This document shows, piece by piece, positions 1 to 50,257 of a stretch of DNA of 64,000 nt (position 1 is its first letter; each line of letters starts with the position of its first letter). Both the position numbers and the translations under genes were made by a program. Under the pieces are notes generated by a model, which made no database searches, was not told the origin of the DNA, and saw only the letters and a list, made by a program, of their open reading frames with translations. Source of the stretch: Eledone cirrhosa (lineage: Eukaryota); the NCBI GenBank assembly GCA_964016885.1, contig OZ024741.1:82894001-82958000 (forward strand). Direction: 5' to 3'.

Positions 1-2
1 TC

Positions 3-279
3 CACTCTTTCAAAAAACACAGTCTAGCCAACTCCACTTCTCTATCTAGCTACATACACTATCTAAAAACTAAAAATAAACCATATACACTTAAATGGGA
101 AGTGATAGGTAACGCGTCATCGTACAAACCACCTAATAAATTGTGTAACCTCTGTCTAATTAGAGACCCATACTATCATCTTCTCAAACCATAACCTCCT
201 TAATAAAAAATCAGAAGTGTTCGCGTCATGCCAACACCGCTTCCGACACTCCTTCCAAAACTTTAAACCCAGTATATAA
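3..279 (+). pseudogene. Penelope-like element, C-terminal GIY-YIG endonuclease remnant (cut by window edge)
   Basis: Manual translation HSFKKHSLANSTSLSSYIHYLKTKNKPYTLKWEVI..CNLCL, frameshift, ETHTII..LLNKKSEVFASCQHR. This matches the PLE ends at 15344-15697 and 13250-13420. Confidence 0.75.
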
Positions 280-1199
280 CAATGTCAGACTTGAACCAGT
301 CACCACCTCTAGCAGTAATCGTCAGGACATACCTTACACCTCATCTCCACACCCATTAATCCTCTTTAGCCCAAATAGTGACATCCTCCTAGTACCTTTT
401 ACCTTGGAGATATCCCCATGTACTTCTACTTTTGGTATATTGGCCTTCAACTGCTTAGACTACATTACACCAATGTACACTTTAAGCAAGGAATTGGTTG
501 TGCTAACATTGTCCTGTGTATGTAGTGCCATCATTGGATAAATGGAAGATTAAGTAATTAATTTATTAACATAAAAGAGCTATACAATCTATATGCTGAG
601 TGCAATGAATTATGTACAGGTGATGTACGAGTTATAAATACATGTATGACTTGATGGTCAGATCAGTGTCTTTGTGAGTGAGAAGTGATCTCAGGACTAC
701 CCTAGTGATATTTAACTTTGCCATGCAATCAGACATGCAGTGACCCAGAACTTACCAGGAGTCATATATTGAAGTGATTCTAATAAGACCCTGCCAGGTC
801 CTGCGGGTAGACTACACTTACAAAGATCACTGATTTGGAGATCTGATTCTTCATGTGGAATGTTCGGTGGGGGCACTCTATGATAAAAGGTATTCATCCT
901 AATATGAACACCTTTAGTACTTCTCGATAGAATACACTGTAATTTATAGATAAGATACTTAAATTTAGAAATTGTTTATAACCTTATATGATGAGAACTC
1001 ATTTGAGACACAATTAATGCACTTTAGGATAATAAATTTAACTATAGAAATCAGCTAGTTACCTCCCCTTACGCATTACCTCCCCTTAATCACACACACA
1101 CTTCCGGAATATAATACGATGTCATCTCTCACAACAAAAACAACCTGATCTATGAATCGAATTAAGGAACGACAAACTGTGATGTTCCACCATGGTTCA

Positions 1200-6468: not shown

Positions 6469-6608
<140 letters not shown>

Positions 6609-7025: not shown

Positions 7026-7078
7026 ACAGATACATACAGACACACATATGCATACATACATGCGTACGTGTGTCTCTG

Positions 7079-7160
<82 letters not shown>

Positions 7161-7182
7161 TCACATACACACATACACACGC

Positions 7183-7313
<131 letters not shown>

Positions 7314-7930: not shown

Positions 7931-7975
7931 TTTATTAACTATACCTTATATCTGTCACTACACTCATATGCGTAA

Positions 7976-8015
<40 letters not shown>

Positions 8016-9089
8016 TTATATATATACATGCGAGTGGGTGTGTAGTTTTTCATTTGCCTGAACCGTCAATTGCATAAACACCTATTACAATATATTGAAA
8101 GTATACCCGCAGCATAATTCGATTTTAAATTTTCAGAAGAACTACATCGTTGTGAATAAGGCGGAAATCCATATAAATTATTCAGCGCATGAAATATCAT
8201 AACGAAATTTGACCCTAGCCACTTCGAGCCCCCTCTACCTTACCCTTAGTAGTATTTGAACTCAGAACCTATAGAAATAAAATTAATTATTGCCATAGTG
8301 CATATACGCCTTACTATACTGTACTATGTCCCCTGCCTTCATATTTTTTATCGATATTCCAGAAAAGACTTATTGACAATTTCTTCCATAGTTAAAAATG
8401 ACTCCGTACGGAATTGTAGCTTCCATTATATATATTCAGAAATTGTCATAGGACATGGCAATGAATATTCAGTTCTATTATCACCAGAAACTTTCAAGTG
8501 ATCTATCTCAAACTATCTTCCTTTATTATCCTTCATTCTGTGTTATATATTTATTTTTACGCTTTTAATTTGTTGTTTTACATTATCTTTCTTTCCTTTG
8601 AATAAGAATGGAAATAATTTTTATTCAGAATAAAACCTTGCCACATCAATTTTTCTGAATTGTTATTTACAATGTTAAAGATCTTTTAACGTAAATAGTT
8701 ACCCTTGTGACCTCACCCCCAACCGAACACCGCACCGTCCTTTCTGTTTCAGACAATGCCAGAAATAAAAAAAAAAAAAACGAAAAGGAAAAAATATGGA
8801 ATGAAATAAAATAATTTATTTTTCAAATGAATTATAGAAGTGCTGCATGTCCAGATAAAGATGGTTCTACGTACGTTATGTTTATGCGCGTGTTTTTGTT
8901 GTTTTTTTTTTGTTGATTTTGCATATTGCGATTTCCTTATTATATTTATTATATGTTTTATGCATATAAATATGATGAAAACGATTCTACAACTGTAGCA
9001 TATAACATATTTGCACATCAGAACCCCCCATCCCCCTTCCAGCACTCCTGCACACACGTGTGTATCCATATGAATGTTTGTAAGTATCT

Positions 9090-9216: not shown

Positions 9217-9577
9217 TACAATATTAAATAAATGGAAAACTATATTTATAAAACCATATTTATTTCATTATATATATTTCGGGGATATCATATTAACAAT
9301 ATGCTATGCCTTCATCAGACAAAATACAATATAAACAGTTTTATAGATAAATATATTCGACATACCGTAATAAACATCAACTTCATTTGAAGAGTGAACC
9401 TCTTCAAATGAAGTTGATGTTTATTACGGTATGTCGAATATATTTATCTATAAAACTGTTTATATTGTATTTTGTCTGATGAAGGCATAGCATATTGTTA
9501 ATATGATTTCCCCGAAATATATATAATGAAATAAATATGGTTTTATAAATATAGTTTTCCATTTATTTAATATTGTA
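9217..9577. repeat. Near-perfect ~360-bp palindrome with CTGATGA...GAAA motif in each arm (probable PLE pLTR inverted pair)
   Basis: ~178-bp arms, one mismatch, 5-nt loop tgaac at 9395-9399. ctgatgaaggc..cccgaaa at 9476-9517, mirrored at 9277-9318. Confidence 0.9.
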
Positions 9578-9628
9578 TATATATATATATATATATGTTT
9601 ACAGATATACATGTATATTTATATATAT

Positions 9629-9777
<149 letters not shown>

Positions 9778-10154
9778 TTTATATATATATATATATAAAT
9801 ATATATATATGTAAATATACATATGTAAATATACATATATATATATATTTATATATATATAAAAACAGATAACGAAACGAAATTAAATTTCGTTTCGTTT
9901 GTAACTCACTTTTGTATGACTGACGCTTAAACAATTAAGTTAAAAATGTACATCCACATATGTGTACTGAAATACTAGTATGCATATGAATACACACACG
10001 TATACATATGTAGATGTACCAAGTCTTTCACTGGTTACTTTACTGTGAGTACCCAGCTATTCTGTATGTAAACACGCAGACAAACCGGTTTTTTGGAGTC
10101 ATACTGGTTTTTGAGGAAACACCTTTCCTCTATTCTCAAGAAAGCCAGACAAGG

Positions 10155-10199
10155 AATATTGAACTAGTTTCGTTGTTGTTACAACTCATCAGCAATATT
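10155..10199 (-). ncRNA. Minimal type I hammerhead ribozyme (family 1)
   Basis: Reverse complement reads aatattg CTGATGA gttgt aaca acaac GAAA ctag TT caatatt. Confidence 0.85.
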
Positions 10200-10250
10200 T
10201 ACCTATCTACCGGCCTTTCTGGAGAATCGTAAAAGGCCGGTAGATAGGTA

Positions 10251-10295
10251 AATATTGCTGATGAGTTGTAACAACAACGAAACTAGTTCAATATT
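10251..10295 (+). ncRNA. Minimal type I hammerhead ribozyme (family 1); another copy at 10717-10761
   Basis: aatattg CTGATGA gttgt-aaca-acaac GAAA c-ta-g TT caatatt: 7-bp stem I, 5-bp stem II, palindromic ACTAGT stem III, GUU site. Confidence 0.85.
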
Positions 10296-10979
10296 CCTTG
10301 TCTGGCTTTCTGGAGAATAGAGGAAAGGTGTTTCCTCAAAAACCAGTATGACTCTAAAAACCGGTTTGTCTGTGTGTTTACATACAGAATAGATGGGTAC
10401 TCACAGTAAAGTAACCAGTGAAAGACTTGGTACATCTACATATGTATACGTGTGTGTATTCATATGCATACTAGTATTTCAGTATACATATGTGGATGTA
10501 CATTTTTAACTTAATTGTTTAAGCGTCAGTCATACAAAAGTGAGTTACAAACGAAACGAAATTTAATTTCGATTCGTTATTTGTTTTTATCGTCTCCGTT
10601 GAACCGGTACGTACTCACACTCTATGCAAATTAGTCTGCCCACTACTAATTTTCATAGAAAAAGCATATAACGATATGTGCTTTTACTATTCTCCAGAAA
10701 GGCCGGTAGATAGGTAAATATTGCTGATGAGTTGTAACAACAACGAAACTAGTTCAATATTCCTTGTCTGGCTTTCTGGAGAATAGAGGAAAGGTGTTTC
10801 CTAAAAAACCAGTATGACTCTAAAAACCGGTTTGTCTACGTGTTTACATACAGAATAGCTGGGTACTCACAGTAAAGAAACCAGTGAAAGACTTGGTACA
10901 TCTACATATGTATACGTGTGTGTATTCATATGCATACTAGTATTTCAGTATACATATGTGGATGTACATTTTTAACTTA

Positions 10980-11025
<46 letters not shown>

Positions 11026-11385
11026 TGTATATATGTATTTATATGTACGTACACACAAAAGTCAATTATTGTTGCTGCCGTATAATGCCGAAAACTGTAT
11101 GGAGAAAAAGAAGAAAGAGATTGAATGGTATTCATGCCTAATCAAGAACATTAGCTATTTAAGTGAAATGAATTGGCTTCAGACACAGGAATCAAAGAAA
11201 AACTTGTATATAAAGAACCTAGGGAATGCTCACTTGTTGCATTAACCACGTATTAGGGACTGAAATATTTAATATTGATTTTTAATACAGCTACTAGTCT
11301 ATTATTGTTTATATTGCACCGTCGTCCAGTTCAAAGCAACAAATGTAAAATAGTCACATATCACTTTCACTTCCTCGTTGTCACG

Positions 11386-21800: not shown

Positions 21801-22146
21801 TAGCCGCTATATGTATATACATTTATACTCAATATGACAAAAGACCAATGTTAACAACTTAAATTCATTCATTAATTACTACGTCCATTTCAATGCGGTA
21901 TATGCATATGTAAACCTCTGAAAATAATTAATTATCGATTATTAACACCATACATATTTCCTATAGCTGCATATAATAGGAAAAGGAGAAAGTAGGTTTA
22001 GGTAAAAAAAAAGATTACTTATCTATTATTAACAATGGTATTCATTTTCATTACGTAGATAAAATTTGTTGTTAGATGTGCTGGAGTGAAGGATAATTAA
22101 CAAGCAATATCAAGCAATCAGCATAAACTATGATTATATATATATA

Positions 22147-25100
22147 TAAAAACAAATAACGAAACGAAATTAAATTTCGTTTCGTTTGTAACTCACTTTT
22201 GTATGACTGACGCTTAAACAATTAAGTTAAAAATGTACATCCACATATGTATACTGAAATACTAGTATGCATATGAATACACACACGTATACATATGTAG
22301 ATGTACCGAGTTTTTCACTGGTCACTTTACTGTGAGTGTCCAGCTATTCTGTATGTAAACACACAGACAAACCGGTTTTTAGAGTCATACTGGTTTTTGA
22401 GGAAACACCTTTCCTATATTCTCCTGAAAGCCAGGCAAGGAATATTGAACTAGTTTCGATGTTGTTACATCTCATCAGCAATATTTACCTATCTTCCGGC
22501 CTCTCTAGAGAATCGTAAAAGCACATATCGTTATATGCTTTTTCTATGAAAATAAGTAGTGGGCAGACTAATTTGCATAGAGCGTGAGTACGTACCGGTT
22601 CAACGGAGACGATAAAAACAAATAACGAAACGAAATTAAATTTCGTTTCGTTTGTAACTCACTTTTGTATGACTGACGCTTAAACAATTAAGTTAAAAAT
22701 GTACATCCACATATGTATACTGAAATACTAGTATGCATATGAATACACACACGTATACATATGTAGATGTACCGAGTTTTTCACTGGTCACTTTACTGTG
22801 AGTGTCCAGCTATTCTGTATGTAAACACACAGACAAACCGGTTTTTAGAATCATACTGGTTTTTGAGGAAACACCTTTCCTATATTCTCCTGAAAGCCAG
22901 GCAAGGAATATTGAACTAGTTTCGATGTTGTTACATCTCATCAGCAATATTTACCTATCTTCCGGCCTCTCTAGAGAATCGTAAAAGCACATATCGTTAT
23001 ATGCTTTTTCTATGAAAATAAGTAGTGGGCAGACTAATTTGCATAGAGCGTGAGTACGTACCGGTTCAACGGAGACGATAAAAACAAATAACGAAACGAA
23101 ATTAAATTTCGTTTCGTTTGTAACTCACTTTTGTATGACTGACGCTTAAACAATTAAGTTAAAAATGTACATCCACATATGTATACTGAAATACTAGTAT
23201 GCATATGAATACACACACGTATACATATGTAGATGTACCGAGTTTTTCACTGGTCACTTTACTGTGAGTGTCCAGCTATTCTGTATGTAAACACACAGAC
23301 AAACCGGTTTTTAGAGTCATACTGGTTTTTGAGGAAACACCTTTCCTATATTCTCCTGAAAGCCAGGCAAGGAATATTGAACTAGTTTCGATGTTGTTAC
23401 ATCTCATCAGCAATATTTACCTATCTTCCGGCCTCTCTAGAGAATCGTAAAAGCACATATCGTTATATGCTTTTTCTATGAAAATAAGTAGTGGGCAGAC
23501 TAATTTGCATAGAGCGTGAGTACGTACCGGTTCAACGGAGACGATAAAAACAAATAACGAAACGAAATTAAATTTCGTTTCGTTTGTAACTCACTTTTGT
23601 ATGACTGACGCTTAAACAATTAAGTTAAAAATGTACATCCACATATGTATACTGAAATACTAGTATGCATATGAATACACACACGTATACATATGTAGAT
23701 GTACCGAGTTTTTCACTGGTCACTTTACTGTGAGTGTCCAGCTATTCTGTATGTAAACACACAGACAAACCGGTTTTTAGAGTCATACTGGTTTTTGAGG
23801 AAACACCTTTCCTATATTCTCCTGAAAGCCAGGCAAGGAATATTGAACTAGTTTCGATGTTGTTACATCTCATCAGCAATATTTACCTATCTTCCGGCCT
23901 CTCTAGAGAATCGTAAAAGCACATATCGTTATATGCTTTTTCTATGAAAATAAGTAGTGGGCAGACTAATTTGCATAGAGCGTGAGTACGTACCGGTTCA
24001 ACGGAGACGATAAAAACAAATAACGAAACGAAATTAAATTTCGTTTCGTTTGTAACTCACTTTTGTATGACTGACGCTTAAACAATTAAGTTAAAAATGT
24101 ACATCCACATATGTATACTGAAATACTAGTATGCATATGAATACACACACGTATACATATGTAGATGTACCGAGTTTTTCACTGGTCACTTTACTGTGAG
24201 TGTCCAGCTATTCTGTATGTAAACACACAGACAAACCGGTTTTTAGAGTCATACTGGTTTTTGAGGAAACACCTTTCCTATATTCTCCTGAAAGCCAGGC
24301 AAGGAATATTGAACTAGTTTCGATGTTGTTACATCTCATCAGCAATATTTACCTATCTTCCGGCCTCTCTAGAGAATCGTAAAAGCACATATCGTTATAT
24401 GCTTTTTCTATGAAAATAAGTAGTGCGCAGACTAATTTGCATAGAGCGTGAGTACGTACCGGTTCAACGGAGACGATAAAAACAAATAACGAAACGAAAT
24501 TAAATTTCGTTTCGTTTGTAACTCACTTTTGTATGACTGACGCTTAAACAATTAAGTTAAAAATGTACATCCACATATGTATACTGAAATACTAGTATGC
24601 ATATGAATACACACACGTATACATATGTAGATGTACCGAGTTTTTCACTGGTCACTTTACTGTGAGTGTCCAGCTATTCTGTATGTAAACACACAGACAA
24701 ACCGGTTTTTAGAGTCATACTGGTTTTTGAGGAAACACCTTTCCTATATTCTCCTGAAAGCCAGGCAAGGAATATTGAACTAGTTTCGATGTTGTTACAT
24801 CTCATCAGCAATATTTACCTATCTTCCGGCCTCTCTAGAGAATCGTAAAAGCACATATCGTTATATGCTTTTTCTATGAAAATAAGTAGTGGGCAGACTA
24901 ATTTGCATAGAGCGTGAGTACGTACCGGTTCAACGGAGACGATAAAAACAAATAACGAAACGAAATTAAATTTCGTTTCGTTTGTAACTCACTTTTGTAT
25001 GACTGACGCTTAAACAATTAAGTTAAAAATGTACATCCACATATGTATACTGAAATACTAGTATGCATATGAATACACACACGTATACATATGTAGATGT

Positions 25101-26411
25101 ACCGAGTTTTTCACTGGTCACTTTACTGTGAGTGTCCAGCTATTCTGTATGTAAACACACAGACAAACCGGTTTTTAGAGTCATACTGGTTTTTGAGGAA
25201 ACACCTTTCCTATATTCTCCTGAAAGCCAGGCAAGGAATATTGAACTAGTTTCGATGTTGTTACATCTCATCAGCAATATTTACCTATCTTCCGGCCTCT
25301 CTAGAGAATCGTAAAAGCACATATCGTTATATGCTTTTTCTATGAAAATAAGTAGTGGGCAGACTAATTTGCATAGAGCGTGAGTACGTACCGGTTCAAC
25401 GGAGACGATAAAAACAAATAACGAAACGAAATTAAATTTCGTTTCGTTTGTAACTCACTTTTGTATGACTGACGCTTATACAATTAAGTTAAAAATGTAC
25501 ATCCACATATGTATACTGAAATACTAGTATGCATATGAATACACACACGTATACATATGTAGATGTACCGAGTTTTTCACTGGTCACTTTACTGTGAGTG
25601 TCCAGCTATTCTGTATGTAAACACACAGACAAACCGGTTTTTAGAGTCATACTGGTTTTTGAGGAAACACCTTTCCTATATTCTCCTGAAAGCCAGGCAA
25701 GGAATATTGAACTAGTTTCGATGTTGTTACATCTCATCAGCAATATTTACCTATCTTCCGGCCTCTCTAGAGAATCGTAAAAGCACATATCGTTATATGC
25801 TTTTTCTATGAAAATAAGTAGTGGGCAGACTAATTTGCATAGAGCGTGAGTACGTACCGGTTCAACGGAGACGATAAAAACAAATAACGAAAGGAAATTA
25901 AATTTCGTTTCGTTTGTAACTCACTTTTGTATGACTGACGCTTAAACAATTAAGTTAAAAATGTACATCCACATATGTATACTGAAATACTAGTATGCAT
26001 ATGAATACACACACGTATACATATGTAGATGTACCGAGTTTTTCACTGGTCACTTTACTGTGAGTGTCCAGCTATTCTGTATGTAAACACACAGACAAAC
26101 CGGTTTTTAGAGTCATACTGGTTTTTGAGGAAACACCTTTCCTATATTCTCCTGAAAGCCAGGCAAGGAATATTGAACTAGTTTCGATGTTGTTACATCT
26201 CATCAGCAATATTTACCTATCTTCCGGCCTCTCTAGAGAATCGTAAAAGCACATATCGTTATATGCTTTTTCTATGAAAATAAGTAGTGGGCAGACTAAT
26301 TTGCATAGAGCGTGAGTACGTACCGGTTCAACGGAGACGATAAAAACAAATAACGAAACGAAATTAAATTTCGTTTCGTTTGTAACTCACTTTTGTATGA
26401 CTGACGCTTAA
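22147..26411 (-). repeat. Left arm of 466-bp tandem array: 9.15 units, 9 hammerheads on the minus strand
   Basis: Exact 466-bp period (ORF track 22336, 22802 ... 26064). First HHR at 22441-22485. Starts in (TA)n. Confidence 0.97.
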
Positions 26412-26441
26412 CGATTCTCTAGAGAGGCCGGAAGATAGGTA

Positions 26442-26486
26442 AATATTGCTGATGAGATGTAACAACATCGAAACTAGTTCAATATT
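26442..26486 (+). ncRNA. Minimal type I hammerhead ribozyme (representative of the 26 array copies)
   Basis: aatattg CTGATGA gatgt-aaca-acatc GAAA c-ta-g TT caatatt. All core nucleotides are canonical, stem III is palindromic, and stem I extends via gccgg/ctggc and ttctc/gagaa. Confidence 0.88.
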
Positions 26487-26814
26487 CCTTGCCTGGCTTT
26501 CAGGAGAATATAGGAAAGGTGTTTCCTCAAAAACCAGTATGACTCTAAAAACCGGTTTGTCTGTGTGTTTACATACAGAATAGCTGGACACTCACAGTAA
26601 AGTGACCAGTGAAAAACTCGGTACATCTACATATGTATACGTGTGTGTATTCATATGCATACTAGTATTTCAGTATACATATGTGGATGTACATTTTTAA
26701 CTTAATTGTTTAAGCGTCAGTCATACAAAAGTGAGTTACAAACGAAACGAAATTTAATTTCGTTTCGTTATTTGTTTTTATCGTCTCCGTTGAACCGGTA
26801 CGTACTCACGCTCT

Positions 26815-26862
26815 ATGCAAATTAGTCTGCCCACTACTTATTTTCATAGAAAAAGCATATAA
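26815..26862 (+). promoter_or_regulatory. Putative internal snRNA-type promoter: octamer ATGCAAAT + TATA-like CATATAA (in every unit)
   Basis: Octamer at 26815, catata at 26856. Same pair with 42-43 bp spacing at 48814/48856 and 42852/42895. Confidence 0.5.
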
Positions 26863-29800
26863 CGATATGTGCTTTTACGATTCTCTAGAGAGGCCGGAAG
26901 ATAGGTAAATATTGCTGATGAGATGTAACAACATCGAAACTAGTTCAATATTCCTTGCCTGGCTTTCAGGAGAATATAGGAAAGGTGTTTCCTCAAAAAC
27001 CAGTATGACTCTAAAAACCGGTTTGTCTGTGTGTTTACATACAGAATAGCTGGACACTCACAGTAAAGTGACCAGTGAAAAACTCGGTACATCTACATAT
27101 GTATACGTGTGTGTATTCATATGCATACTAGTATTTCAGTATACATATGTGGATGTACATTTTTAACTTAATTGTTTAAGCGTCAGTCATACAAAAGTGA
27201 GTTACAAACGAAACGAAATTTAATTTCGTTTCGTTATTTGTTTTTATCGTCTCCGTTGAACCGGTACGTACTCACGCTCTATGCAAATTAGTCTGCCCAC
27301 TACTTATTTTCATAGAAAAAGCATATAACGATATGTGCTTTTACGATTCTCTAGAGAGGCCGGAAGATAGGTAAATATTGCTGATGAGATGTAACAACAT
27401 CGAAACTAGTTCAATATTCCTTGCCTGGCTTTCAGGAGAATATAGGAAAGGTGTTTCCTCAAAAACCAGTATGACTCTAAAAACCGGTTTGTCTGTGTGT
27501 TTACATACAGAATAGCTGGACACTCACAGTAAAGTGACCAGTGAAAAACTCGGTACATCTACATATGTATACGTGTGTGTATTCATATGCATACTAGTAT
27601 TTCAGTATACATATGTGGATGTACATTTTTAACTTAATTGTTTAAGCGTCAGTCATACAAAAGTGAGTTACAAACGAAACGAAATTTAATTTCGTTTCGT
27701 TATTTGTTTTTATCGTCTCCGTTGAACCGGTACGTACTCACGCTCTATGCAAATTAGTCTGCCCACTACTTATTTTCATAGAAAAAGCATATAACGATAT
27801 GTGCTTTTACGATTCTCTAGAGAGGCCGGAAGATAGGTAAATATTGCTGATGAGATGTAACAACATCGAAACTAGTTCAATATTCCTTGCCTGGCTTTCA
27901 GGAGAATATAGGAAAGGTGTTTCCTCAAAAACCAGTATGACTCTAAAAACCGGTTTGTCTGTGTGTTTACATACAGAATAGCTGGACACTCACAGTAAAG
28001 TGACCAGTGAAAAACTCGGTACATCTACATATGTATACGTGTGTGTATTCATATGCATACTAGTATTTCAGTATACATATGTGGATGTACATTTTTAACT
28101 TAATTGTTTAAGCGTCAGTCATACAAAAGTGAGTTACAAACGAAACGAAATTTAATTTCGTTTCGTTATTTGTTTTTATCGTCTCCGTTGAACCGGTACG
28201 TACTCACGCTCTATGCAAATTAGTCTGCCCACTACTTATTTTCATAGAAAAAGCATATAACGATATGTGCTTTTACGATTCTCTAGAGAGGCCGGAAGAT
28301 AGGTAAATATTGCTGATGAGATGTAACAACATCGAAACTAGTTCAATATTCCTTGCCTGGCTTTCAGGAGAATATAGGAAAGGTGTTTCCTCAAAAACCA
28401 GTATGACTCTAAAAACCGGTTTGTCTGTGTGTTTACATACAGAATAGCTGGACACTCACAGTAAAGTGACCAGTGAAAAACTCGGTACATCTACATATGT
28501 ATACGTGTGTGTATTCATATGCATACTAGTATTTCAGTATACATATGTGGATGTACATTTTTAACTTAATTGTTTAAGCGTCAGTCATACAAAAGTGAGT
28601 TACAAACGAAACGAAATTTAATTTCGTTTCGTTATTTGTTTTTATCGTCTCCGTTGAACCGGTACGTACTCACGCTCTATGCAAATTAGTCTGCCCACTA
28701 CTTATTTTCATAGAAAAAGCATATAACGATATGTGCTTTTACGATTCTCTAGAGAGGCCGGAAGATAGGTAAATATTGCTGATGAGATGTAACAACATCG
28801 AAACTAGTTCAATATTCCTTGCCTGGCTTTCAGGAGAATATAGGAAAGGTGTTTCCTCAAAAACCAGTATGACTCTAAAAACCGGTTTGTCTGTATGTTT
28901 ACATACAGAATAGCTGGACACTCACAGTAAAGTGACCAGTGAAAAACTCGGTACATCTACATATGTATACGTGTGTGTATTCATATGCATACTAGTATTT
29001 CAGTATACATATGTGGATGTACATTTTTAACTTAATTGTTTAAGCGTCAGTCATACAAAAGTGAGTTACAAACGAAACGAAATTTAATTTCGTTTCGTTA
29101 TTTGTTTTTATCGTCTCCGTTGAACCGGTACGTACTCACGCTCTATGCAAATTAGTCTGCCCACTACTTATTTTCATAGAAAAAGCATATAACGATATGT
29201 GCTTTTACGATTCTCTAGAGAGGCCGGAAGATAGGTAAATATTGCTGATGAGATGTAACAACATCGAAACTAGTTCAATATTCCTTGCCTGGCTTTCAGG
29301 AGAATATAGGAAAGGTGTTTCCTCAAAAACCAGTATGACTCTAAAAACCGGTTTGTCTGTGTGTTTACATACAGAATAGCTGGACACTCACAGTAAAGTG
29401 ACCAGTGAAAAACTCGGTACATCTACATATGTATACGTGTGTGTATTCATATGCATACTAGTATTTCAGTATACATATGTGGATGTACATTTTTAACTTA
29501 ATTGTTTAAGCGTCAGTCATACAAAAGTGAGTTACAAACGAAACGAAATTTAATTTCGTTTCGTTATTTGTTTTTATCGTCTCCGTTGAACCGGTACGTA
29601 CTCACGCTCTATGCAAATTAGTCTGCCCACTACTTATTTTCATAAAAAAGCATATAACGAGATGTGCTTTTACGATTCTCTAGAGAGGCCGGAAGATAGG
29701 TAAATATTGCTGATGAGATGTAACAACATCGAAACTAGTTCAATATTCCTTGCCTGGCTTTCAGGAGAATATAGGAAAGGTGTTTCCTCAAAAACCAGTA

Positions 29801-32800
29801 TGACTCTAAAAACCGGTTTGTCTGTGTGTTTACATACAGAATAGCTGGACACTCACAGTAAAGTGACCAGTGAAAAACTCGGTACATCTACATATGTATA
29901 CGTGTGTGTATTCATATGCATACTAGTATTTCAGTATACATATGTGGATGTACATTTTTAACTTAATTGTTTAAGCGTCAGTCATACAAAAGTGAGTTAC
30001 AAACGAAACGAAATTTAATTTCGTTTCGTTATTTGTTTTTATCGTCTCCGTTGAACCGGTACGTACTCACGCTCTATGCAAATTAGTCTGCCCACTACTT
30101 ATTTTCATAGAAAAAGCATATAACGATATGTGCTTTTACGATTCTCTAGAGAGGCCGGAAGATAGGTAAATATTGCTGATGAGATGTAACAACATCGAAA
30201 CTAGTTCAATATTCCTTGCCTGGCTTTCAGGAGAATATAGGAAAGGTGTTTCCTCAAAAACCAGTATGACTCTAAAAACCGGTTTGTCTGTATGTTTACA
30301 TACAGAATAGCTGGACACTCACAGTAAAGTGACCAGTGAAAAACTCGGTACATCTACATATGTATACGTGTGTGTATTCATATGCATACTAGTATTTCAG
30401 TATACATATGTGGATGTACATTTTTAACTTAATTGTTTAAGCGTCAGTCATACAAAAGTGAGTTACAAACGAAACGAAATTTAATTTCGTTTCGTTATTT
30501 GTTTTTATCGTCTCCGTTGAACCGGTACGTACTCACGCTCTATGCAAATTAGTCTGCCCACTACTTATTTTCATAGAAAAAGCATATAACGATATGTGCT
30601 TTTACGATTCTCTAGAGAGGCCGGAAGATAGGTAAATATTGCTGATGAGATGTAACAACATCGAAACTAGTTCAATATTCCTTGCCTGGCTTTCAGGAGA
30701 ATATAGAAAAGGTGTTTCCTCAAAAACCAGTATGATTCTAAAAACCGGTTTGTCTGTGTGTTTACATACAGAATAGCTGGACACTCACAGTAAAGTGACC
30801 AGTGAAAAACTCGGTACATCTACATATGTATACGTGTGTGTATTCATATGCATACTAGTATTTCAGTATACATATGTGGATGTACATTTTTAACTTAATT
30901 GTTTAAGCGTCAGTCATACAAAAGTGAGTTACAAACGAAACGAAATTTAATTTCGTTTCGTTATTTGTTTTTATCGTCTCCGTTGAACCGGTACGTACTC
31001 ACGCTCTATGCAAATTAGTCTGCCCACTACTTATTTTCATAGAAAAAGCATATAACGATATGTGCTTTTACGATTCTCTAGAGAGGCCGGAAGATAGGTA
31101 AATATTGCTGATGAGATGTAACAACATCGAAACTAGTTCAATATTCCTTGCCTGGCTTTCAGGAGAATATAGGAAAGGTGTTTCCTCAAAAACCAGTATG
31201 ACTCTAAAAACCGGTTTGTCTGTGTGTTTACATACAGAATAGCTGGACACTCACAGTAAAGTGACCAGTGAAAAACTCGGTACATCTACATATGTATACG
31301 TGTGTGTATTCATATGCATACTAGTATTTCAGTATACATATGTGGATGTACATTTTTAACTTAATTGTTTAAGCGTCAGTCATACAAAAGTGAGTTACAA
31401 ACGAAACGAAATTTAATTTCCTTTCGTTATTTGTTTTTATCGTCTCCGTTGAACCGGTACGTACTCACGCTCTATGCAAATTAGTCTGCCCACTACTTAT
31501 TTTCATAGAAAAAAGCATATAACGATATGTGCTTTTACGATTCTCTAGAGAGGCCGGAAGATAGGTAAATATTGCTGATGAGATGTAACAACATCGAAAC
31601 TAGTTCAATATTCCTTGCCTGGCTTTCAGGAGAATATAGGAAAGGTGTTTCCTCAAAAACCAGTATGACTCTAAAAACCGGTTTGTCTGTGTGTTTACAT
31701 ACAGAATAGCTGGACACTCACAGTAAAGTGACCAGTGAAAAACTCGGTACATCTACATATGTATACGTGTGTGTATTCATATGCATACTAGTATTTCAGT
31801 ATACATATGTGGATGTACATTTTTAACTTAATTGTTTAAGCGTCAGTCATACAAAAGTGAGTTACAAACGAAACGAAATTTAATTTCGTTTCGTTATTTG
31901 TTTTTATCGTCTCCGTTGAACCGGTACGTACTCACGCTCTATGCAAATTAGTCTGCCCACTACTTATTTTCATAAAAAAGCATATAACGATATGTGCTTT
32001 TACGATTCTCTAGAGAGGCCGGAAGATAGGTAAATATTGCTGATGAGATGTAACAACATCGAAACTAGTTCAATATTCCTTGCCTGGCTTTCAGGAGAAT
32101 ATAGGAAAGGTGTTTCCTCAAAAACCAGTATGACTCTAAAAACCGGTTTGTCTGTGTGTTTACATACAGAATAGCTGGACACTCACAGTAAAGTGACCAG
32201 TGAAAAACTCGGTACATCTACATATGTATACGTGTGTGTATTCATATGCATACTAGTATTTCAGTATACATATGTGGATGTACATTTTTAACTTAATTGT
32301 TTAAGCGTCAGTCATACAAAAGTGAGTTACAAACGAAACGAAATTTAATTTCGTTTCGTTATTTGTTTTTATCGTCTCCGTTGAACCGGTACGTACTCAC
32401 GCTCTATGCAAATTAGTCTGCCCACTACTTATTTTCATAGAAAAAGCATATAACGATATGTGCTTTTACGATTCTCTAGAGAGGCCGGAAGATAGGTAAA
32501 TATTGCTGATGAGATGTAACAACATCGAAACTAGTTCAATATTCCTTGCCTGGCTTTCAGGAGAATATAGGAAAGGTGTTTCCTCAAAAACCAGTATGAC
32601 TCTAAAAACCGGTTTGTCTGTATGTTTACATACAGAATAGCTGGACACTCACAGTAAAGTGACCAGTGAAAAACTCGGTACATCTACATATGTATACGTG
32701 TGTGTATTCATATGCATACTAGTATTTCAGTATACATATGTGGATGTACATTTTTAACTTAATTGTTTAAGCGTCAGTCATACAAAAGTGAGTTACAAAC

Positions 32801-34157
32801 GAAACGAAATTTAATTTCGTTTCGTTATTTGTTTTTATCGTCTCCGTTGAACCGGTACGTACTCACGCTCTATGCAAATTAGTCTGCCCACTACTTATTT
32901 TCATAGAAAAAGCATATAACGATATGTGCTTTTACGATTCTCTAGAGAGGCCGGAAGATAGGTAAATATTGCTGATGAGATGTAACAACATCGAAACTAG
33001 TTCAATATTCCTTGCCTGGCTTTCAGGAGAATATAGGAAAGGTGTTTCCTCAAAAACCAGTATGATTCTAAAAACCGGTTTGTCTGTGTGTTTACATACA
33101 GAATAGCTGGACACTCACAGTAAAGTGACCAGTGAAAAACTCGGTACATCTACATATGTATACGTGTGTGTATTCATATGCATACTAGTATTTCAGTATA
33201 CATATGTGGATGTACATTTTTAACTTAATTGTTTAAGCGTCAGTCATACAAAAGTGAGTTACAAACGAAACGAAATTTAATTTCGTTTCGTTATTTGTTT
33301 TTATCGTCTCCGTTGAACCGGTACGTACTCACGCTCTATGCAAATTAGTCTGCCCACTACTTATTTTCATAGAAAAAGCATATAACGATATGTGCTTTTA
33401 CGATTCTCTAGAGAGGCCGGAAGATAGGTAAATATTGCTGATGAGATGTAACAACATCGAAACTAGTTCAATATTCCTTGCCTGGCTTTCAGGAGAATAT
33501 AGGAAAGGTGTTTCCTCAAAAACCAGTATGACTCTAAAAACCGGTTTGTCTGTGTGTTTACATACAGAATAGCTGGACACTCACAGTAAAGTGACCAGTG
33601 AAAAACTCGGTACATCTACATATGTATACGTGTGTGTATTCATATGCATACTAGTATTTCAGTATACATATGTGGATGTACATTTTTAACTTAATTGTTT
33701 AAGCGTCAGTCATACAAAAGTGAGTTACAAACGAAACGAAATTTAATTTCGTTTCGTTATTTGTTTTTATCGTCTCCGTTGAACCGGTACGTACTCACGC
33801 TCTATGCAAATTAGTCTGGCCACTACTTATTTTCATAGAAAAAAGCATATAACGATATGTGCTTTTACGATTCTCTAGAGAGGCCGGAAGATAGGTAAAT
33901 ATTGCTGATGAGATGTAACAACATCGAAACTAGTTCAATATTCCTTGCCTGGCTTTCAGGAGAATATAGGAAAGGTGTTTCCTCAAAAACCAGTATGACT
34001 CTAAAAACCGGTTTGTCTGTGTGTTTACATACAGAATAGCTGGACACTCACAGTAAAGTGACCAGTGAAAAACTCGGTACATCTACATATGTATACGTGT
34101 GTGTATTCATATGCATACTATTATTTCAGTATACATATGTGGATGTACATTTTTAAC

Positions 34158-34222
<65 letters not shown>

Positions 34223-34863: not shown

Positions 34864-35655
34864 AATATAATTGAATAAACAAGAGAGATGAACACTAATA
34901 TAAACATACATGTGTTCGAATCGTAAGGACCAAAATTTGCTAGGGTGAACAAATACTAACTACAGCAATATAGTTTGTTATCCTTAACTTTAAATATTAA
35001 ATTAAGAAAAATAAAGAAAAATAACAGACCGATATTGGGCAAAAGTGCCTGCTAACAACTAGACAGTGTTGGAGACTGTTCGCAACGACTTATTAAGTGA
35101 AGTTCTCACGTTTCTCTGCTCTTCAGTAGTTGTTGAGAAATTAATGATCCTTTCACTTCTAAAACTATTAGAGAATGGATTGTGTACGATATGAAATTAT
35201 CGCACGTGTCATTCGGAACCCAGCTTGTCTCAAAATTCCCTGCCGCTAAAATAGCAGCCTGGCAGACAGGACAATAACAATTAGCTCTACATGATGGAGC
35301 CGACAATACACAGGCGACAATTTCATATCGTACAGAATTCATTTTCTAATATTTTTAGAAGTGAAAGCATCACTAATTTCTCAACAACTACTGAGGAGCA
35401 GAGAAACGTGAGAACTTCACTTAATAAGTCGTTGCGAAACAGTCTCCAACGCTGTCTAGTTGTTACCAGGCATTTTTGCCCAATATAGGTCTGTTATTTT
35501 TCTAAATTTTTCTTAATTTAATATTTAAAGTTAAGGATAACAGACTATATTGTTGTAGTTAGTATTTTTTCACCCTAGCAAATGTTGGTCCTTACGATTC
35601 AGACACATGTATGTTTATATTAGTGTTCATCTCTCTTGTTTATTCAATTATATTA
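34864..35655. mobile_element. Foldback element (~350-bp arms, ~75-bp spacer) with an HHR in each arm
   Basis: aatataattgaataaacaagagagatgaacac at the left end mirrors gtgttcatctctcttgtttattcaattatatt at the right end. Pairing continues inward to tgtacgatatgaaat / atttcatatcgtaca. Confidence 0.88.
35383..35464 (+). ncRNA. Type I hammerhead ribozyme with complete stem III (mirror copy 35054-35134, minus strand, lacks one A of GAAA)
   Basis: aacaacta CTGAGGA gca[32 nt]tgc GAAA cag[tctccaacg]ctg TC tagttgtt: 8-bp stem I, GUC site. Confidence 0.75.
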
Positions 35656-35679
35656 TATATATATACACATGTATATATA

Positions 35680-36222
35680 TATTACTGTGCGTCTGTATAC
35701 ATATATGTATGCACGTATTCATACTTATATTTAAGTAACAGCCATACTAAGAGTGAGAAATGAAATTTCGTTTCATTTTTTCCATTTATCGTTTTCGGTG
35801 CGCCCGGCCGATTAACTCACTCGATATGCAAATTAGGCTGCTCAGCCGTTAATATGCATAAGGAAAATATACACTTTCAGACGTTCAATCATCTGGCAGG
35901 AAGGTATACGGTGCTGAAGATAGCTAATAAGCTTGAAACTAGTACATCGTTCCTTTGTCAGTGTTGAACAAAAGGGCAACGGAGGGTTGCTAAACACTGT
36001 ACGGCTTAATCCGGGATGTTTGTTTACAAGCAAACCGAGCATTATAATAAATGTTCGGTAAATCCATACGTACATATATATATGAGTGCATGTATGTATA
36101 TATATACATACTAATGTACGTCTGTATACATATATGTATGTACGTATACATACTTATATATAAGTAACAGCCGCACTAGGTGTAAGAAATGAAATTTCGT
36201 TTCATTTTTTCCATTTATCGTT
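35680..36222 (+). mobile_element. Diverged ~1.25-unit copy of HHR repeat family 2 (~430-bp period); HHR at 35908-35950
   Basis: acggtg CTGAAGA tagct aata agctt GAAA ctag TA catcgt, with atgcaaattaggctgctcagcc upstream. Homologous to 48786-50187. Confidence 0.85.
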
Positions 36223-37056
36223 ATACATACTTATATTCAATCTTAAAACATTACATACATAAATAATTACAATAAAGACTAAATATATTTTTTAAAAGAC
36301 TTAAATTATGTATAAAATATATATAATATATAGGGAAACATATAAAAAGAAACATTTGCATCTTAACATATAGCATAATTGATTAAATCTAGTGGAGTTA
36401 CATTAAGTTTAGTTATAGATAAGTTAATTTATTATTATCTGGTTAAAGTTTCGTATCATTATTTTATTAAGGGGTTGATAAAATCAGGTACCAATAATGT
36501 ACCGGGATAATTGATGACCTTGTGTTACAAACAGAAACACTTATTTTATTATTTACACTAATTGATAATATTTATGTGGGCAAGGGGAAAGAATCTCAGG
36601 TTTTCTGTTAAATATTACTAGTTTGGAGTCTCTTAAGTCGTTGAGATTTTTGCAGTTTCGACCTGAAACCAATAATACAATAATACATTAGTAAATAATA
36701 CATTAGTAAATATTTCTTAGACTAAATGTAGCCGAATCTATACATCAGAGATAGCGGCTATAGGCTCTGACCATTCTGGTAGATACGGAGTTCGATTCTT
36801 CGTAGAGATCGCTAACAATTCTTTCCGCCTCTAGGGGTCTTTAATCGATTTTTATAAGCTAGTAACTGTGATTGCAGCTATTTTATGCGCCTGACCTCCT
36901 TACATCTTATGAATTTATATTCTGGGGTTTTCGTATATCCGAGCTGCACAAACGAGTGTCGTTTATGTAAATATATATATATATAAGTGTATCCCTGGTC
37001 CAATGTGTGTGTGTGTGGAGGGGGGGGGGTAATCACAGTATGTATGTTACTTAATA

Positions 37057-48554: not shown

Positions 48555-48654
<100 letters not shown>

Positions 48655-48775: not shown

Positions 48776-50033
48776 CACACATATATATGCCTGACCGATT
48801 TAACTCACTCAATATGCAAATTAGGCTGCTCAGCCGTTAATTTTCATAAGAAAAGTATATACTTTCGAACGTTCAACCATCTGGCAGATGGGTATACGGT
48901 GCTGATGATAGCTAACAAGCTTGAAACTAGTACATCGTTCCTGTGTTAGTATTGAACAAAAAGGTGACGTGGTTGCCTTAACACCGTATGGCATAACTTA
49001 AGGCTGTTCAGTTTGTTTACAAACGAACAAAGCGGCGTTATAATAAGCGTCCGCTAAACTGATACGTGCATATATGTATGTGTACCTGTATGTATATATG
49101 TGTATATATATATATATATATATGCATGCTACTGTACGTCTGTATACATGTGTGTATGTACGTATACATACATACTTACATTTAAGTAAGTGCCATACTA
49201 AGAGTGAGAAATGAAATTTCGTTTTCATTTTATTTCAACTTATCGTTTTCGGTATGCCTGACCGATTTAACTCACTCAATATGCAAATTAGGCTGCTCAG
49301 CCGTTAATTTTCATAAGGAAAGTATATACTTTCGAACGTTCAACTATCTGGCAGATGGGTATACGGTGCTGATGATAGCTAACAAGCTTGAAACTAGTAC
49401 ATCGTTCCTGTGTTAGTGTTGAAGAATAAGGTGACGTGGTTGCCTTAACACCGTATGGCATAAATTCAGGCTGCTCTGTTTGTTTACAAACGAACAAAGC
49501 GGCGTTATAATAAGCGTCCGCTAAACTGATACGTGCATATATGTATGTGTACCTGTATGTATATATGTGTATATATATATATATATATATGCATGCTACT
49601 GTACGTCTGTATACATATATGTATGTACGTATACATACATACTTACATTTAAGTAAGTGCCATACTAGGAGTGAGAAATGAAATTTCGTTTTCATTTTAT
49701 TTCAACTTATCGTTTTCGGTATGCCTGACCGATTTAACTCACTCAACATGCAAATTAGGCTGCTCAGCTGTGAATTTTCATAAGGAAAGTATATACTTTC
49801 GAACGTTCAACTATCTGGCAGATGGGTATACGGTGCTGATGATAGCTAACAAGCTTGAAACTAGTACATCGTTCCTGTGTTGTTGAACAAAAAGGTGACG
49901 CGGTTGCCATAACACCGTATGGCATAAATTCAGGCTGCTCTGTTTGTTTACAAACGAACAAAGCGGCGTTATAATAAGCGTCCGCTAAACTGATACGTGC
50001 ATATATGTATGTGTACCTGTATGTATATGTGTG

Positions 50034-50073
<40 letters not shown>

Positions 50074-50186
50074 TGCTACTGTACGTCTGTGTACATATAT
50101 GTATGTACGTATACATACATACTTACATTTAAGTAAGTGCCATACTAAGAGTGAGAAATGAAATTTCGTTTTCATTTTATTTCAAC

Positions 50187-50187
<1 letters not shown>
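48680..50187. mobile_element. HHR repeat family 2: ~105-bp inverted arm + 3 direct units of 467 bp, within (TA)n
   Basis: HHRs at 48896, 49363 and 49830 (467-bp spacing). 48680-48735 is the reverse complement of gcatgctactgtacgtctgtgtacatatatgtatgtacgtatacatacatactta. Confidence 0.9.
48896..48938 (+). ncRNA. Minimal type I hammerhead ribozyme (family 2); also 49363-49405 and 49830-49872
   Basis: acggtg CTGATGA t agct-aaca-agct t GAAA c-ta-g TA catcgt. GUA site, palindromic ACTAGT stem III, U.U at the base of stem II. Confidence 0.8.

Positions 50188-50257
<70 letters not shown>

What the first reader, a model, noticed from the sequence alone, without database searches (positions are those of the whole stretch)
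9860..10984. Small sibling insertion has the same outer termini as the 12-kb array
Seen: both insertions begin (TA)n-aaaaaca(g/a)ataacgaaacg and end gtacatttttaacttaatt(gt)-(TA)n, yet differ by ~3% and have different inversion points and unit counts (0.8+1.6 versus 9.15+16.6). Inference: two independent integrations used the same two priming sites on the RNA, both next to T5 runs. This argues for a defined mobile unit rather than a satellite, and against the big inversion being an assembly foldback artefact. The alternative is an old local duplication followed by array expansion.
Basis: partly seen in the sequence, partly recalled or inferred. Interest (0 to 1): 0.75.

Follow-up and report, generated by a model that had tools for sequence, protein, structure and literature searches.

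The report
Hammerhead retrozyme with fixed insertion ends
The small insertion and the 12-kb array are two separate copies of a 466-base non-coding jumping repeat that carries a hammerhead ribozyme motif and ends at the same two points of its unit all over this genome; it is likely copied into TA microsatellites from both cut DNA ends by a Penelope-type retrotransposon enzyme, which makes it a new example of a known kind of element.

Summary
Observation confirmed. The insertion at 9859-10984 and the array at 22146-34163 are both head-to-head pairs of arms of one 466-nt unit. Their outer ends sit at unit 301/302 (site A) and 228/230 (site B), and their inner junctions and unit counts differ (0.81+1.61 and 9.15+16.64). 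Divergence is 4.5-5.1%, not about 3%.

3 kb of flank on each side shows no homology. In 26 mapped copies, 23 are two-armed, 19 of these 23 end A+B, and none ends A+A or B+B. Inner junctions are scattered and carry 2-6 nt of microhomology. All 3 copies outside (TA)n have target-site duplications.

Each unit holds a type I hammerhead motif with a palindromic helix III, supported by covariation across three families. The genome holds thousands of candidate Penelope-like elements (RT plus GIY-YIG). One such family shows the same ribozyme design, (TA)n targets and two alternative 3' ends.

This matches published Penelope behaviour: both strands are nicked and extended, reverse transcription starts at two internal RNA sites, and the 'tail' between them appears at one end. 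Verdict: a non-autonomous Penelope-type retrozyme, a new member of a known kind. RNA, self-cleavage and the autonomous partner remain untested.

The parts
9576..9861 (.). (TA)n microsatellite, left half of the target of the small insertion
   Evidence: TRF period 2, 143 copies; sequence read
9859..10235 (-). Small insertion, arm A (ribozyme sense on the minus strand): unit 393..466,1..301/302, 0.81 unit. The outer end is site A (...ATTTGTTTTTA).
   Evidence: 94.9% identical to the big array's unit
10234..10984 (+). Small insertion, arm B: unit 412..466, one full unit, then 1..230, 1.61 units. The outer end is site B (...AACTTAATTGT). It is joined to arm A through a 2-nt overlap (AG).
   Evidence: (D4, I1-I3, I22); 95.5% identical to the big array's unit
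10139..10210 (-). Hammerhead ribozyme motif of arm A; predicted cut between 10162 and 10161 on the minus strand
   Evidence: Rfam Hammerhead_HH9, 38.6 bits, E 5.6e-8, below the gathering score of 52; core and helices by covariation
10240..10311 (+). Hammerhead ribozyme motif, first of arm B: AATATTG-CTGATGA-GTTGT-AACA-ACAAC-GAAA-CTAGT-T|CAATATT; predicted cut after 10288
10706..10777 (+). Hammerhead ribozyme motif, second of arm B; predicted cut after 10754
10550..10578 (+). 13-bp hairpin (unit 262-290) that lies between site B and site A, inside the 'tail' segment. Its mirror copy is at 9871-9899.
   Evidence: self-complementary hits of unit 262-290; MFE fold
10984..11044 (.). (TA)n microsatellite, right half of the target
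22146..26411 (-). Big array, arm A: 9.15 units, outer end at unit 302 (site A), inner end at unit 231
   Evidence: units 99.8% alike
26408..34163 (+). Big array, arm B: 16.64 units, inner end at unit 395-398, outer end at unit 228 (site B), followed by (TA)35 at 34163-34232. The junction with arm A is a 4-nt overlap (TTAA).
   Evidence: five-unit higher-order pattern
48786..50190 (+). Sister family 2: 467-nt unit, 3.0 units, one arm only, lying between (AT)n 48571-48788 and (TA)n 50188-50255. Its 3' end, TTTATTTCAAC, is homologous to site A.
   Evidence: (65% identity to family 1 over 204 nt)
35650..36225 (+). Older, diverged family-2-like copy (about 1.2 units) with a hammerhead motif at 35902-35957; coordinates are approximate

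Best explanation
Both insertions are independent copies of a 466-nt non-coding repeat that carries a hammerhead ribozyme motif. They were likely put in place in trans by Penelope-like element (PLE) protein, which would nick both strands of a (TA)n target and start reverse transcription at two fixed internal sites of the repeat's RNA: unit 301 on one DNA end and unit 228-233 on the other.

Shown here:
- the two-armed head-to-head anatomy;
- the two fixed outer ends, always one of each kind;
- scattered inner junctions with microhomology;
- target-site duplications;
- the (TA)n preference;
- the ribozyme motif and its covariation;
- thousands of candidate RT+GIY-YIG elements in the same genome, with intact ORFs among those fetched, one family of which has the same footprint.

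Inferred:
- The RNA intermediate.
- Each arm is a cDNA primed from one of the two 3'-OH ends of the cut target and copied towards the RNA's 5' side, over several units of either an uncleaved multimeric transcript or a circular monomer.
- The two cDNA ends are then joined through 2-6 nt of microhomology and filled in, as in L1 'twin priming'.
- The roughly 70-nt segment between sites B and A, which holds a 13-bp hairpin, is the counterpart of the PLE 'tail' and would be where the enzyme sits.
- The ribozyme would cut unit-length RNA from array transcripts and would act as a dimer, because its helix III is a 6-nt palindrome.
For: Anatomy:
- 26 loci were mapped (24 elsewhere in the genome plus the 2 here); 23 of 26 are two-armed and head-to-head.
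- 19 of these 23 have one A end (301/302) and one B end (227-236); 0 of 23 are A+A or B+B. If the two ends chose independently, my calculation gives P about 2e-6 for 19 of 19.
- The inner ends of both arms spread from unit 10 to unit 460.
- Junction overlap is 2 nt or more in 20 of 23, against 21.8% of 5000 simulated random junctions (binomial P 5e-11).
- Both 40-nt flanks are (TA)n-like in 16 of 23.
- The 3 copies outside (TA)n each have a direct duplication: ACATTTAAT(T), AATTAACTAT(T) and (A)TAGCT.

Independence of the two loci: no flank homology.

Single origin of the arms. In the small copy the three overlapping segments are equally diverged from one another (97.0-97.8%). In the big array, sense-sense, antisense-antisense and sense-antisense unit pairs are all 99.7-99.8% alike.

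Ribozyme:
- CUGAUGA and GAAA cores are invariant in 19 distinct variants from three families.
- 91.2% of cells are paired, against 27-47% in the slid controls.
- 9 of 15 pairs change on both sides, and 0 of 500 shuffles reach this.
- The helix III palindrome changes ACTAGT to ACGCGT in family 3.
- The predicted dimer is -19.2 kcal/mol, against -7.9 for one strand.
- The unit RNA folds at -148.2 kcal/mol, z = -8.9.

Sister families share the anatomy:
- Family 2: 12 of 12 fetched loci are two-armed, with exactly one arm ending at its A site.
- Family 3: a 310-nt unit, two arms, ends offset by about 33 nt.

PLEs in this genome:
- 10,596 first-look GIY-YIG candidates; 150 of 150 scored are over the Pfam cut-off.
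- ORFs with RVT_1 followed by GIY-YIG.
- One PLE family (L064, L065, L068) has the same ribozyme design (palindrome AGTACT), (TA)n flanks and two 3' ends 45-46 nt apart.

Literature:
- PMC11167929 (main text read): PLE protein cleaves and extends both strands at AT-rich DNA. Reverse transcription starts at two internal RNA sites that are not homologous to the target, and the tail is the stretch between them.
- PMC8557442 (passages read): tandem and inverted insertions, a tail at one end, and a (TA)n bias.
Against: - No RNA evidence of any kind was obtained, so transcription, self-cleavage and circles are all unshown.
- The Rfam hammerhead match is below the family's gathering score (38.6 against 52). 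Helix III has only 2 intramolecular pairs, so a single ribozyme cannot fold.
- No autonomous PLE with sequence similarity to family 1 or family 2 was found among the 18 PLE loci examined. Only family 3 shows a weak match (65% over 235 nt) near a degraded PLE.
- 7 of 26 loci depart from the A+B rule as scored. Four have one odd outer end and three are scored one-armed. By eye, two of these seven are A+B after all.
- The census took the best-scoring, young copies (98-100% identity) and is not a random sample.
- In vitro, the published PLE showed no difference in start site between the two strands. The strict A/B pairing seen here is therefore not explained by that work.
- A five-unit repeat-of-repeats in the big sense arm shows that some growth after insertion, or a heterogeneous template, is also involved.
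- Everything rests on one assembly. Reads spanning the junctions were not obtained.
Confidence: 0.85

Rival explanations
1. Same element and same PLE-type integration, but each event inserted only about one unit or less per arm. The long arrays, including the 9+17 units here, grew afterwards by unequal crossing-over. This is the satellite-birth model favoured in the 2026 preprint on animal retrozymes.
For: The big sense arm has a five-unit higher-order pattern: units p7-p11 repeat as p12-p16 at 4 of 5 marked units, as a block duplication would give. The preprint 10.64898/2026.07.22.740005 (discussion passage) proposes local amplification. Internal unequal exchange leaves the outer ends untouched, so fixed ends do not argue against it.
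Against: Arm lengths run continuously from 0.14 to 16.6 units, and most small, young copies already exceed one unit per arm. In the older small copy all three overlapping segments are equally diverged (97.0-97.8%), as expected if they were made together. In the big array, the variants 64C>T and 283G>C are shared between opposite arms, which unequal exchange within one arm cannot produce. The published in-vitro work infers multimeric RNA as the template (PMC11167929).
Confidence: 0.3
2. A DNA-level mobile element or repair product: a Helitron/Helentron-like rolling-circle transposon, a foldback transposon, or extrachromosomal circular DNA captured at breaks in fragile (TA)n tracts.
For: Insertion between A and T, a hairpin about 10 nt before one end (unit 262-290, with the end at 301) and tandem arrays all recall Helitron-type elements (recalled, not tested against a library). 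(TA)n tracts are known fragile sites (recalled).
Against: Target-site duplications of variable length at 3 of 3 informative copies; Helitrons make none and DDE transposons make a fixed length. The two outer ends are asymmetric (A and B, about 70 nt apart), not symmetric inverted termini. Both arms point outward in ribozyme sense. No Rep/helicase or transposase ORF lies in the unit (466 nt, longest frame 46 codons). The footprint equals that of RT+GIY-YIG elements in the same genome.
Confidence: 0.05
3. The two window loci are an old local duplication followed by array expansion.
For: The loci lie only 11 kb apart, in the same orientation.
Against: There are 0 BLAST hits between 3-kb flanks of the small, big and third loci in any pairing. 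The inner junctions differ (393/412 against 231/395). At least 24 further loci on other chromosomes have the same ends.
Confidence: 0.01
4. The head-to-head inversions are assembly foldback artefacts.
For: Long tandem arrays next to (TA)n are hard to assemble, and no spanning reads were seen here.
Against: 23 of 26 loci have the same architecture, each with its own junction and with microhomology far above chance. The two arms always end at different unit positions, which a foldback of one arm would not give. Arms of unequal unit number carry private variants. Published PLE insertions have this form (PMC8557442).
Confidence: 0.03

Closest known systems
Animal non-LTR retrozymes (Cervera & de la Pena 2020, PMC7229834, passages read; Li, Clavereau & Pollet 2026, bioRxiv 10.64898/2026.07.22.740005, results and passages read)
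   Same: A non-coding unit of a few hundred nt in tandem. A type I hammerhead motif in each unit. Low GC. Target-site duplications longer than 4 bp. Co-occurrence with PLEs in the genome.
   Different: In those papers the words 'inverted' and 'microsatellite' do not occur in the 2020 text. In the 2026 text 'inverted' stands only in the reference list, and 'microsatellite' is used only to set such repeats apart. The two-armed form, the two fixed ends and the (TA)n target are not described there. RNA circles were shown for their families and not for this one.
Penelope-like element insertion footprint (Craig et al. 2021, PMC8557442, passages read; Frangieh et al. 2024, PMC11167929, main text read)
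   Same: Partial tandems plus an adjacent inverted 5'-truncated copy. A 'tail' present at one end only. AT-rich or (TA)n targets. Both strands nicked and extended. Two internal start sites of reverse transcription without homology to the target. A minimal hammerhead.
   Different: This unit encodes no RT or endonuclease. Its tail is about 70 nt rather than 30-40 bp. In vitro no strand difference in start site was seen, whereas here the two arms always use different sites. No sequence link to a particular PLE was found.
L1 twin priming (Ostertag & Kazazian 2001; recalled, not read here)
   Same: Both 3'-OH ends of the cut target prime cDNA on the RNA. The result is an inversion with both 3' sides outward and microhomology at the inner junction.
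   Different: In L1 it is an occasional accident, and the second primer anneals at variable internal places. Here it is the rule (23 of 26), and both start points are fixed.
Newt satellite 2 and schistosome SM-alpha hammerhead repeats (recalled, not read here)
   Same: Dispersed tandem repeats of about 330 nt with hammerheads whose short helix III requires dimers.
   Different: No sequence relation was tested. Insertion ends and targets of those repeats were not compared.

Membership tests
Animal non-LTR retrozyme | Non-coding unit of about 50-970 nt arranged in tandem | tested here: met
   466-nt period, 99% matches. No ORF of 120 aa or more lies within either family-1 insertion; one frame of 134 aa overlaps the family-2 array. 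The longest frame from the AUG of the CUGAUGA box is 46 codons (read from the unit).
Animal non-LTR retrozyme | Type I hammerhead ribozyme motif in every unit | tested here: met
   The GAAACTAGTT box is present in all 19 sense and 10 antisense units of the window. Cores are invariant, and helices I, II and III covary across 19 variants. The Rfam HH9 score is only 38.6, below the gathering score of 52.
Animal non-LTR retrozyme | Self-cleavage and unit-length linear and circular RNA | not testable with these tools
   Needs RNA data or a cleavage assay. Only folds were computed.
Animal non-LTR retrozyme | No LTR, PBS or PPT; target-site duplications longer than 4 bp when visible | tested here: met
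   Duplications of 9-10, 10-11 and 5-6 bp at 3 of 3 copies outside (TA)n. PBS and PPT were not searched for.
Non-autonomous derivative of a Penelope-like element | Tandem plus adjacent inverted 5'-truncated copy | tested here: met
   23 of 26 loci are head-to-head two-armed.
Non-autonomous derivative of a Penelope-like element | 'Tail': two alternative start sites, with the stretch between them present at one end only | tested here: met
   One end at 301/302 and the other at 227-236 in 19 of 23; never the same site twice. The tail here is 68-74 nt, against 30-40 bp in the literature.
Non-autonomous derivative of a Penelope-like element | AT-rich or (TA)n target | tested here: met
   Both flanks are (TA)n-like in 16 of 23, and one flank in 4 more.
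Non-autonomous derivative of a Penelope-like element | Sequence similarity to the pLTR or 5' region of an autonomous PLE of the same genome | tested here: inconclusive
   No hit of family 1 or 2 to the 18 PLE loci fetched, out of more than 10,000 candidates. Family 3 is 65% identical over 235 nt near a degraded PLE.
Non-autonomous derivative of a Penelope-like element | Autonomous RT + GIY-YIG elements present to act in trans | tested here: met
   ORFs of 551-938 aa with RVT_1 followed by GIY-YIG. One family has the same ribozyme design, (TA)n flanks and two 3' ends.
Helitron / Helentron | No target-site duplication; one orientation with distinct 5' and 3' termini | tested here: not met
   Duplications at 3 of 3 informative copies. 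Two arms in opposite orientation.
Foldback or other DDE DNA transposon | Symmetric terminal inverted repeats and a fixed duplication length | tested here: not met
   The outer ends are offset by about 70 nt of the unit. The duplications vary from 5 to 11 bp.

The most novel reading that the evidence does not exclude
The strict pairing of one A end with one B end (19 of 19 two-armed copies with canonical ends, never A+A or B+B) means the two cDNAs of an insertion are started together by one PLE dimer. The dimer would sit on a single roughly 70-nt RNA module, with one active site at each edge of the 'tail'. This built-in asymmetry was not seen in the published in-vitro system. On this reading, arms of up to 7.7 kb arise in that single event by running round a 466-nt ribozyme-made RNA circle, so kilobase satellite arrays are born whole rather than grown.
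Probability: 0.3. Interest if true: 0.6.

Novelty: new member of a known kind. Interest (0 to 1): 0.42.

Why it matters
How Penelope-like elements integrate is still called undefined in the literature, and the claim that animal retrozymes ride on them rests on co-occurrence and sequence similarity. This family supplies a different line of evidence. Many young copies can be mapped to the base, and a protein-free hammerhead repeat carries the full Penelope footprint: both strands primed, two fixed internal start sites, a tail at one end, and (TA)n targets.

The one-A-one-B rule and the microhomology at the junctions are concrete constraints that an in-vitro system could test. The family also gives annotators a warning. 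These arrays look like satellites or assembly foldbacks, but they are insertions.

Tried and rejected
- Rfam at gathering thresholds over the whole window found nothing. The hammerhead appeared only in E-value mode. The many miRNA 'hits' there are just the long inverted repeat.
- RNA evidence: no RNA holder was listed for the unit. The six runs listed are of unknown kind. Contigs of four of them (one from each of the four coded organisms) were laid, and they only show that the family is present in all four and that 11 contigs run from unit 302 into (TA)n.
- Read-level support for the inversion junction and for an empty site was not obtained (searches gave no result).
- Search for the autonomous partner. 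A 10-kb gap in a family-2 cluster turned out to be more array. Ten loci with long RT+GIY-YIG frames and eight further GIY-YIG loci showed no similarity to family 1 or 2. The family-3-like stretch near a degraded PLE (L072) could not be shown to be that element's own pLTR. The ORFs next to the family-3 array are a LINE, not a PLE.
- A third class of family-2 ends ('1-50' hits) proved to be BLAST fragmentation across the unit's internal TA-rich stretch, and I dropped it.
- Snap-back (hairpin) synthesis as the origin of the second arm is rejected. The inner ends of the two arms differ by anything from 20 to more than 300 unit positions. Only L039, and the family-3 copy in L071, have a palindromic centre.
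- Template of ribozyme-cut linear monomers is rejected. Arms exceed one unit, and inner ends are not enriched at unit 1 (10 of 38 in the first 85 nt, against 18% expected).
- Priming by (TA)n microhomology is rejected. The RNA beyond sites A and B shares at most 1-2 nt with the target.
- Notes of earlier agents gave the same reading for related families. I treat these as leads, not evidence.

Full report
**What is there.** The window is AT-rich animal-like DNA full of microsatellites. At 9859-10984, a 1.1-kb insertion lies between a 286-bp and a 61-bp (TA)n tract. It consists of two arms of one 466-nt unit in opposite orientation (direct repeat with 466-nt spacing, and inverted repeats that are 95-98% complementary). 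The 12-kb array at 22146-34163 has the same plan.

I numbered the unit from the predicted ribozyme cut, so that window 26480-26945 is unit 1-466. In this numbering:
- The small copy runs 302 to 393 (antisense arm, 0.81 unit), then 412 to 230 (sense arm, 1.61 units).
- The big copy runs 302 to 231 (9.15 units), then 395 to 228 (16.64 units).

**Are the shared ends a property of the element?** The window's genome (3.0 Gb) gave at least 195 matches to the unit at 98-100% identity on many contigs (a lower bound). In that table, all 33 partial hits that begin at unit 1 and stop early stop at 301/302 (18) or at 227-234 (15).

I fetched 20 loci and used four more. L016 duplicates L015 and was dropped. 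The pieces of three long arrays (L001-L013, L017-L020, L022-L027, L029-L030) were not mapped by script. With the two window loci this gives 26:
- 23 are two-armed, with both arms pointing outward in ribozyme sense.
- 19 of the 23 have one end at site A (301/302, ...ATTTGTTTTTA) and one at site B (227-236, mostly 228 or 233, ...AACTTAATT(GTTTA)).
- None is A+A or B+B.
- Four have one odd end (L015, L028, L039, L050) and three score as one-armed (L014, L044, L049).
- By eye, L050 is a B end with an 8-nt deletion, and L014 has a 15-nt B arm.

The inner ends of both arms are spread from unit 10 to 460. The arms overlap by 2 nt or more in 20 of 23, against 21.8% of 5000 simulated random junctions (P 5e-11).

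**Mobile or duplicated?** Flanks of 3 kb on each side of the small, big and third loci share no BLAST hit in any pairing. Both flanks are (TA)n-like in 16 of 23 loci. The three copies outside microsatellites each carry a direct duplication of 9-10, 10-11 and 5-6 bp exactly at the A and B ends. This is the signature of staggered target cleavage. Together with the fixed ends, it rules out a satellite or a local duplication.

**One event per locus.** In the small, older copy the three overlapping segments are equally distant from each other (97.0, 97.4 and 97.8%). In the big, young array, sense-sense, antisense-antisense and sense-antisense unit pairs are all 99.7-99.8% alike. The arms of a locus are thus of one age and from one template type.

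The big sense arm also shows a five-unit pattern in which units p7-p11 repeat as p12-p16, and two variants are shared across arms. So either the template was a heterogeneous multimer, or a block was duplicated after insertion.

**The ribozyme.** Each unit reads AATATTG-CTGATGA-GATGT-AACA-ACATC-GAAA-CTAGT-T|CAATATT. Rfam finds Hammerhead_HH9 at 38.6 bits (E 5.6e-8), below its gathering score of 52.

Nineteen distinct variants from three families (alignment A1) keep the CUGANGA and GAAA cores invariant. They pair in 91.2% of cells, against 27-47% when partners are slid. Nine of 15 pairs change on both sides, and 0 of 500 shuffles reach this.

Helix II reads GAUGU/ACAUC in the big array, GUUGU/ACAAC in the small copy and AGCU/AGCU in family 2. 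Helix III is a 6-nt palindrome (ACUAGU, and ACGCGU in family 3) with only two intramolecular pairs, so it is predicted to form between two ribozymes (co-fold -19.2 kcal/mol, against -7.9 for one strand). The whole unit folds at -148.2 kcal/mol, z = -8.9. Cleavage itself is untested.

**Sister families.**
- Family 2 (467 nt) is in the window at 48786-50190 as three direct units between (AT)n and (TA)n. An older copy lies near 35650-36225. It is 65% identical to family 1 from the A region through the ribozyme, and its 3' end aligns with site A. In 12 of 12 further loci it is two-armed, with exactly one arm ending at that site. In the three loci I could read in the cut output, the other arm ends about 58 nt upstream.
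- Family 3 (310 nt, L071:585-2202) is again two-armed in (TA)n, with ends offset by about 33 nt.
- T5 runs are not conserved at these ends, so they are unlikely to be the determinant.

**The likely driver.** A scan for GIY-YIG gave 10,596 first-look candidates, and all 150 scored were over the Pfam cut-off. Fetched loci hold open frames of 551-938 aa with RVT_1 followed by GIY-YIG, which is the Penelope-like architecture.

One such family (L064, L065, L068; 96.7-98.2% alike over 2.9-3.4 kb) has the following features:
- a hammerhead of the same design (palindrome AGUACU), about 390 nt after its ORF;
- (TA)n at its borders;
- two alternative 3' ends 45-46 nt apart, one copy ending at the first and two at the second.

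No PLE similar in sequence to family 1 or 2 was found among the 18 loci looked at.

**Comparison with print.**
- Craig et al. 2021 (PMC8557442, passages) describe PLE insertions as partial tandems with an adjacent inverted 5'-truncated copy, a 30-40-bp tail at one end and a (TA)n bias. They call the mechanism undefined.
- Frangieh et al. 2024 (PMC11167929, main text) show that a purified PLE protein cleaves and extends both strands at AT-rich DNA. It starts reverse transcription at two adjacent internal RNA sites with no homology to the target. The tail is the stretch between those sites, and uncut multimeric RNA is the likely template.
- The retrozyme papers (PMC7229834, passages; bioRxiv 10.64898/2026.07.22.740005, results and passages) define the class and argue for a PLE origin. 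In the parts I read or searched, they do not describe two-armed insertions, fixed ends or (TA)n targets.
- A search for 'retrozyme' together with 'twin priming' or 'head-to-head' found no paper that holds them together.

**Verdict.** It is a new member of a known kind.

The points that go slightly beyond print are these: the rule of one A end plus one B end; a tail of about 70 nt holding a 13-bp hairpin; and the junction microhomology. The open questions are RNA and cleavage, the partner element, circle versus multimer template, and read-level confirmation of these two loci.

Noticed in passing
window 48786-50190: A second ribozyme-repeat family (467-nt unit, 3.0 direct units, no inverted arm) sits in its own (TA)n tract. 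Its hammerhead has a U.U where G10.1-C11.1 usually stands, and Rfam lists no hammerhead there at E up to 0.01. The family is older and more abundant than family 1 (1213 first-look candidates, 79-97% identity).
   Followed up: partly
window 35650-36225 (approximate): A diverged family-2-like copy of about 1.2 units, with a hammerhead motif at 35902-35957, lies 1.4 kb right of the big array. The 64-kb window therefore holds four insertions of this superfamily.
   Followed up: partly
window 29276-33935 (sense arm of the big array): Five-unit higher-order pattern. Unit-specific variants of units p7-p11 recur in p12-p16: the 370 A-run length, 86G>A, 64C>T. The variants 64C>T and 283G>C also occur in the opposite arm.
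   Followed up: partly
window 26449-26592 and every unit: A 46-codon open frame starts at the AUG inside the CUGAUGA box of the ribozyme. This recalls the published anole PLE, whose ORF starts within its hammerhead. It could be a remnant of a parent element's N-terminus.
   Followed up: no
unit 334-345 (e.g. window 26813-26824) and window 49277-49288: A 12-nt block, TATGCAAATTAG, containing the octamer ATGCAAAT, is conserved between families 1 and 2, which are otherwise about 65% alike. It is a candidate promoter element (the octamer's role is recalled, not tested).
   Followed up: no
L083:2836-2870 (G000 C3, near 189991250): A family-1 arm begins inside the TA-rich internal stretch of a family-2 unit. 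Family 1 thus also inserts into the microsatellite-like core of its sister family.
   Followed up: no
L064, L065, L068 (G000 C6, C3, C7): A young autonomous RT+GIY-YIG family has a hammerhead about 390 nt after the ORF, (TA)n borders and two alternative 3' ends 45-46 nt apart. L066 holds two 551-aa ORFs of another PLE head-to-head and overlapping.
   Followed up: partly
L071:2921-5514 and 6285-8677: Next to the family-3 array lie a LINE (RVT_1 at E 8e-33, a PHD finger, endonuclease-RT domain) and three blocks of a 203-nt tandem repeat of unknown nature.
   Followed up: no
window 45911-47275: A GC-rich stretch (51.5% in 46001-48000, against about 35% around it) holds a weak zf-RVT match (E 1.1e-5, just under the Pfam cut-off) on the minus strand. 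It is probably a decayed non-LTR retrotransposon.
   Followed up: no
runs X4, X5, X6 (coded organisms B, C, D): Contigs of three further coded organisms carry the family-1 unit at 90-99% likeness, one of them as a tandem (a joint that goes back 465 nt). The family is therefore not confined to one organism.
   Followed up: no
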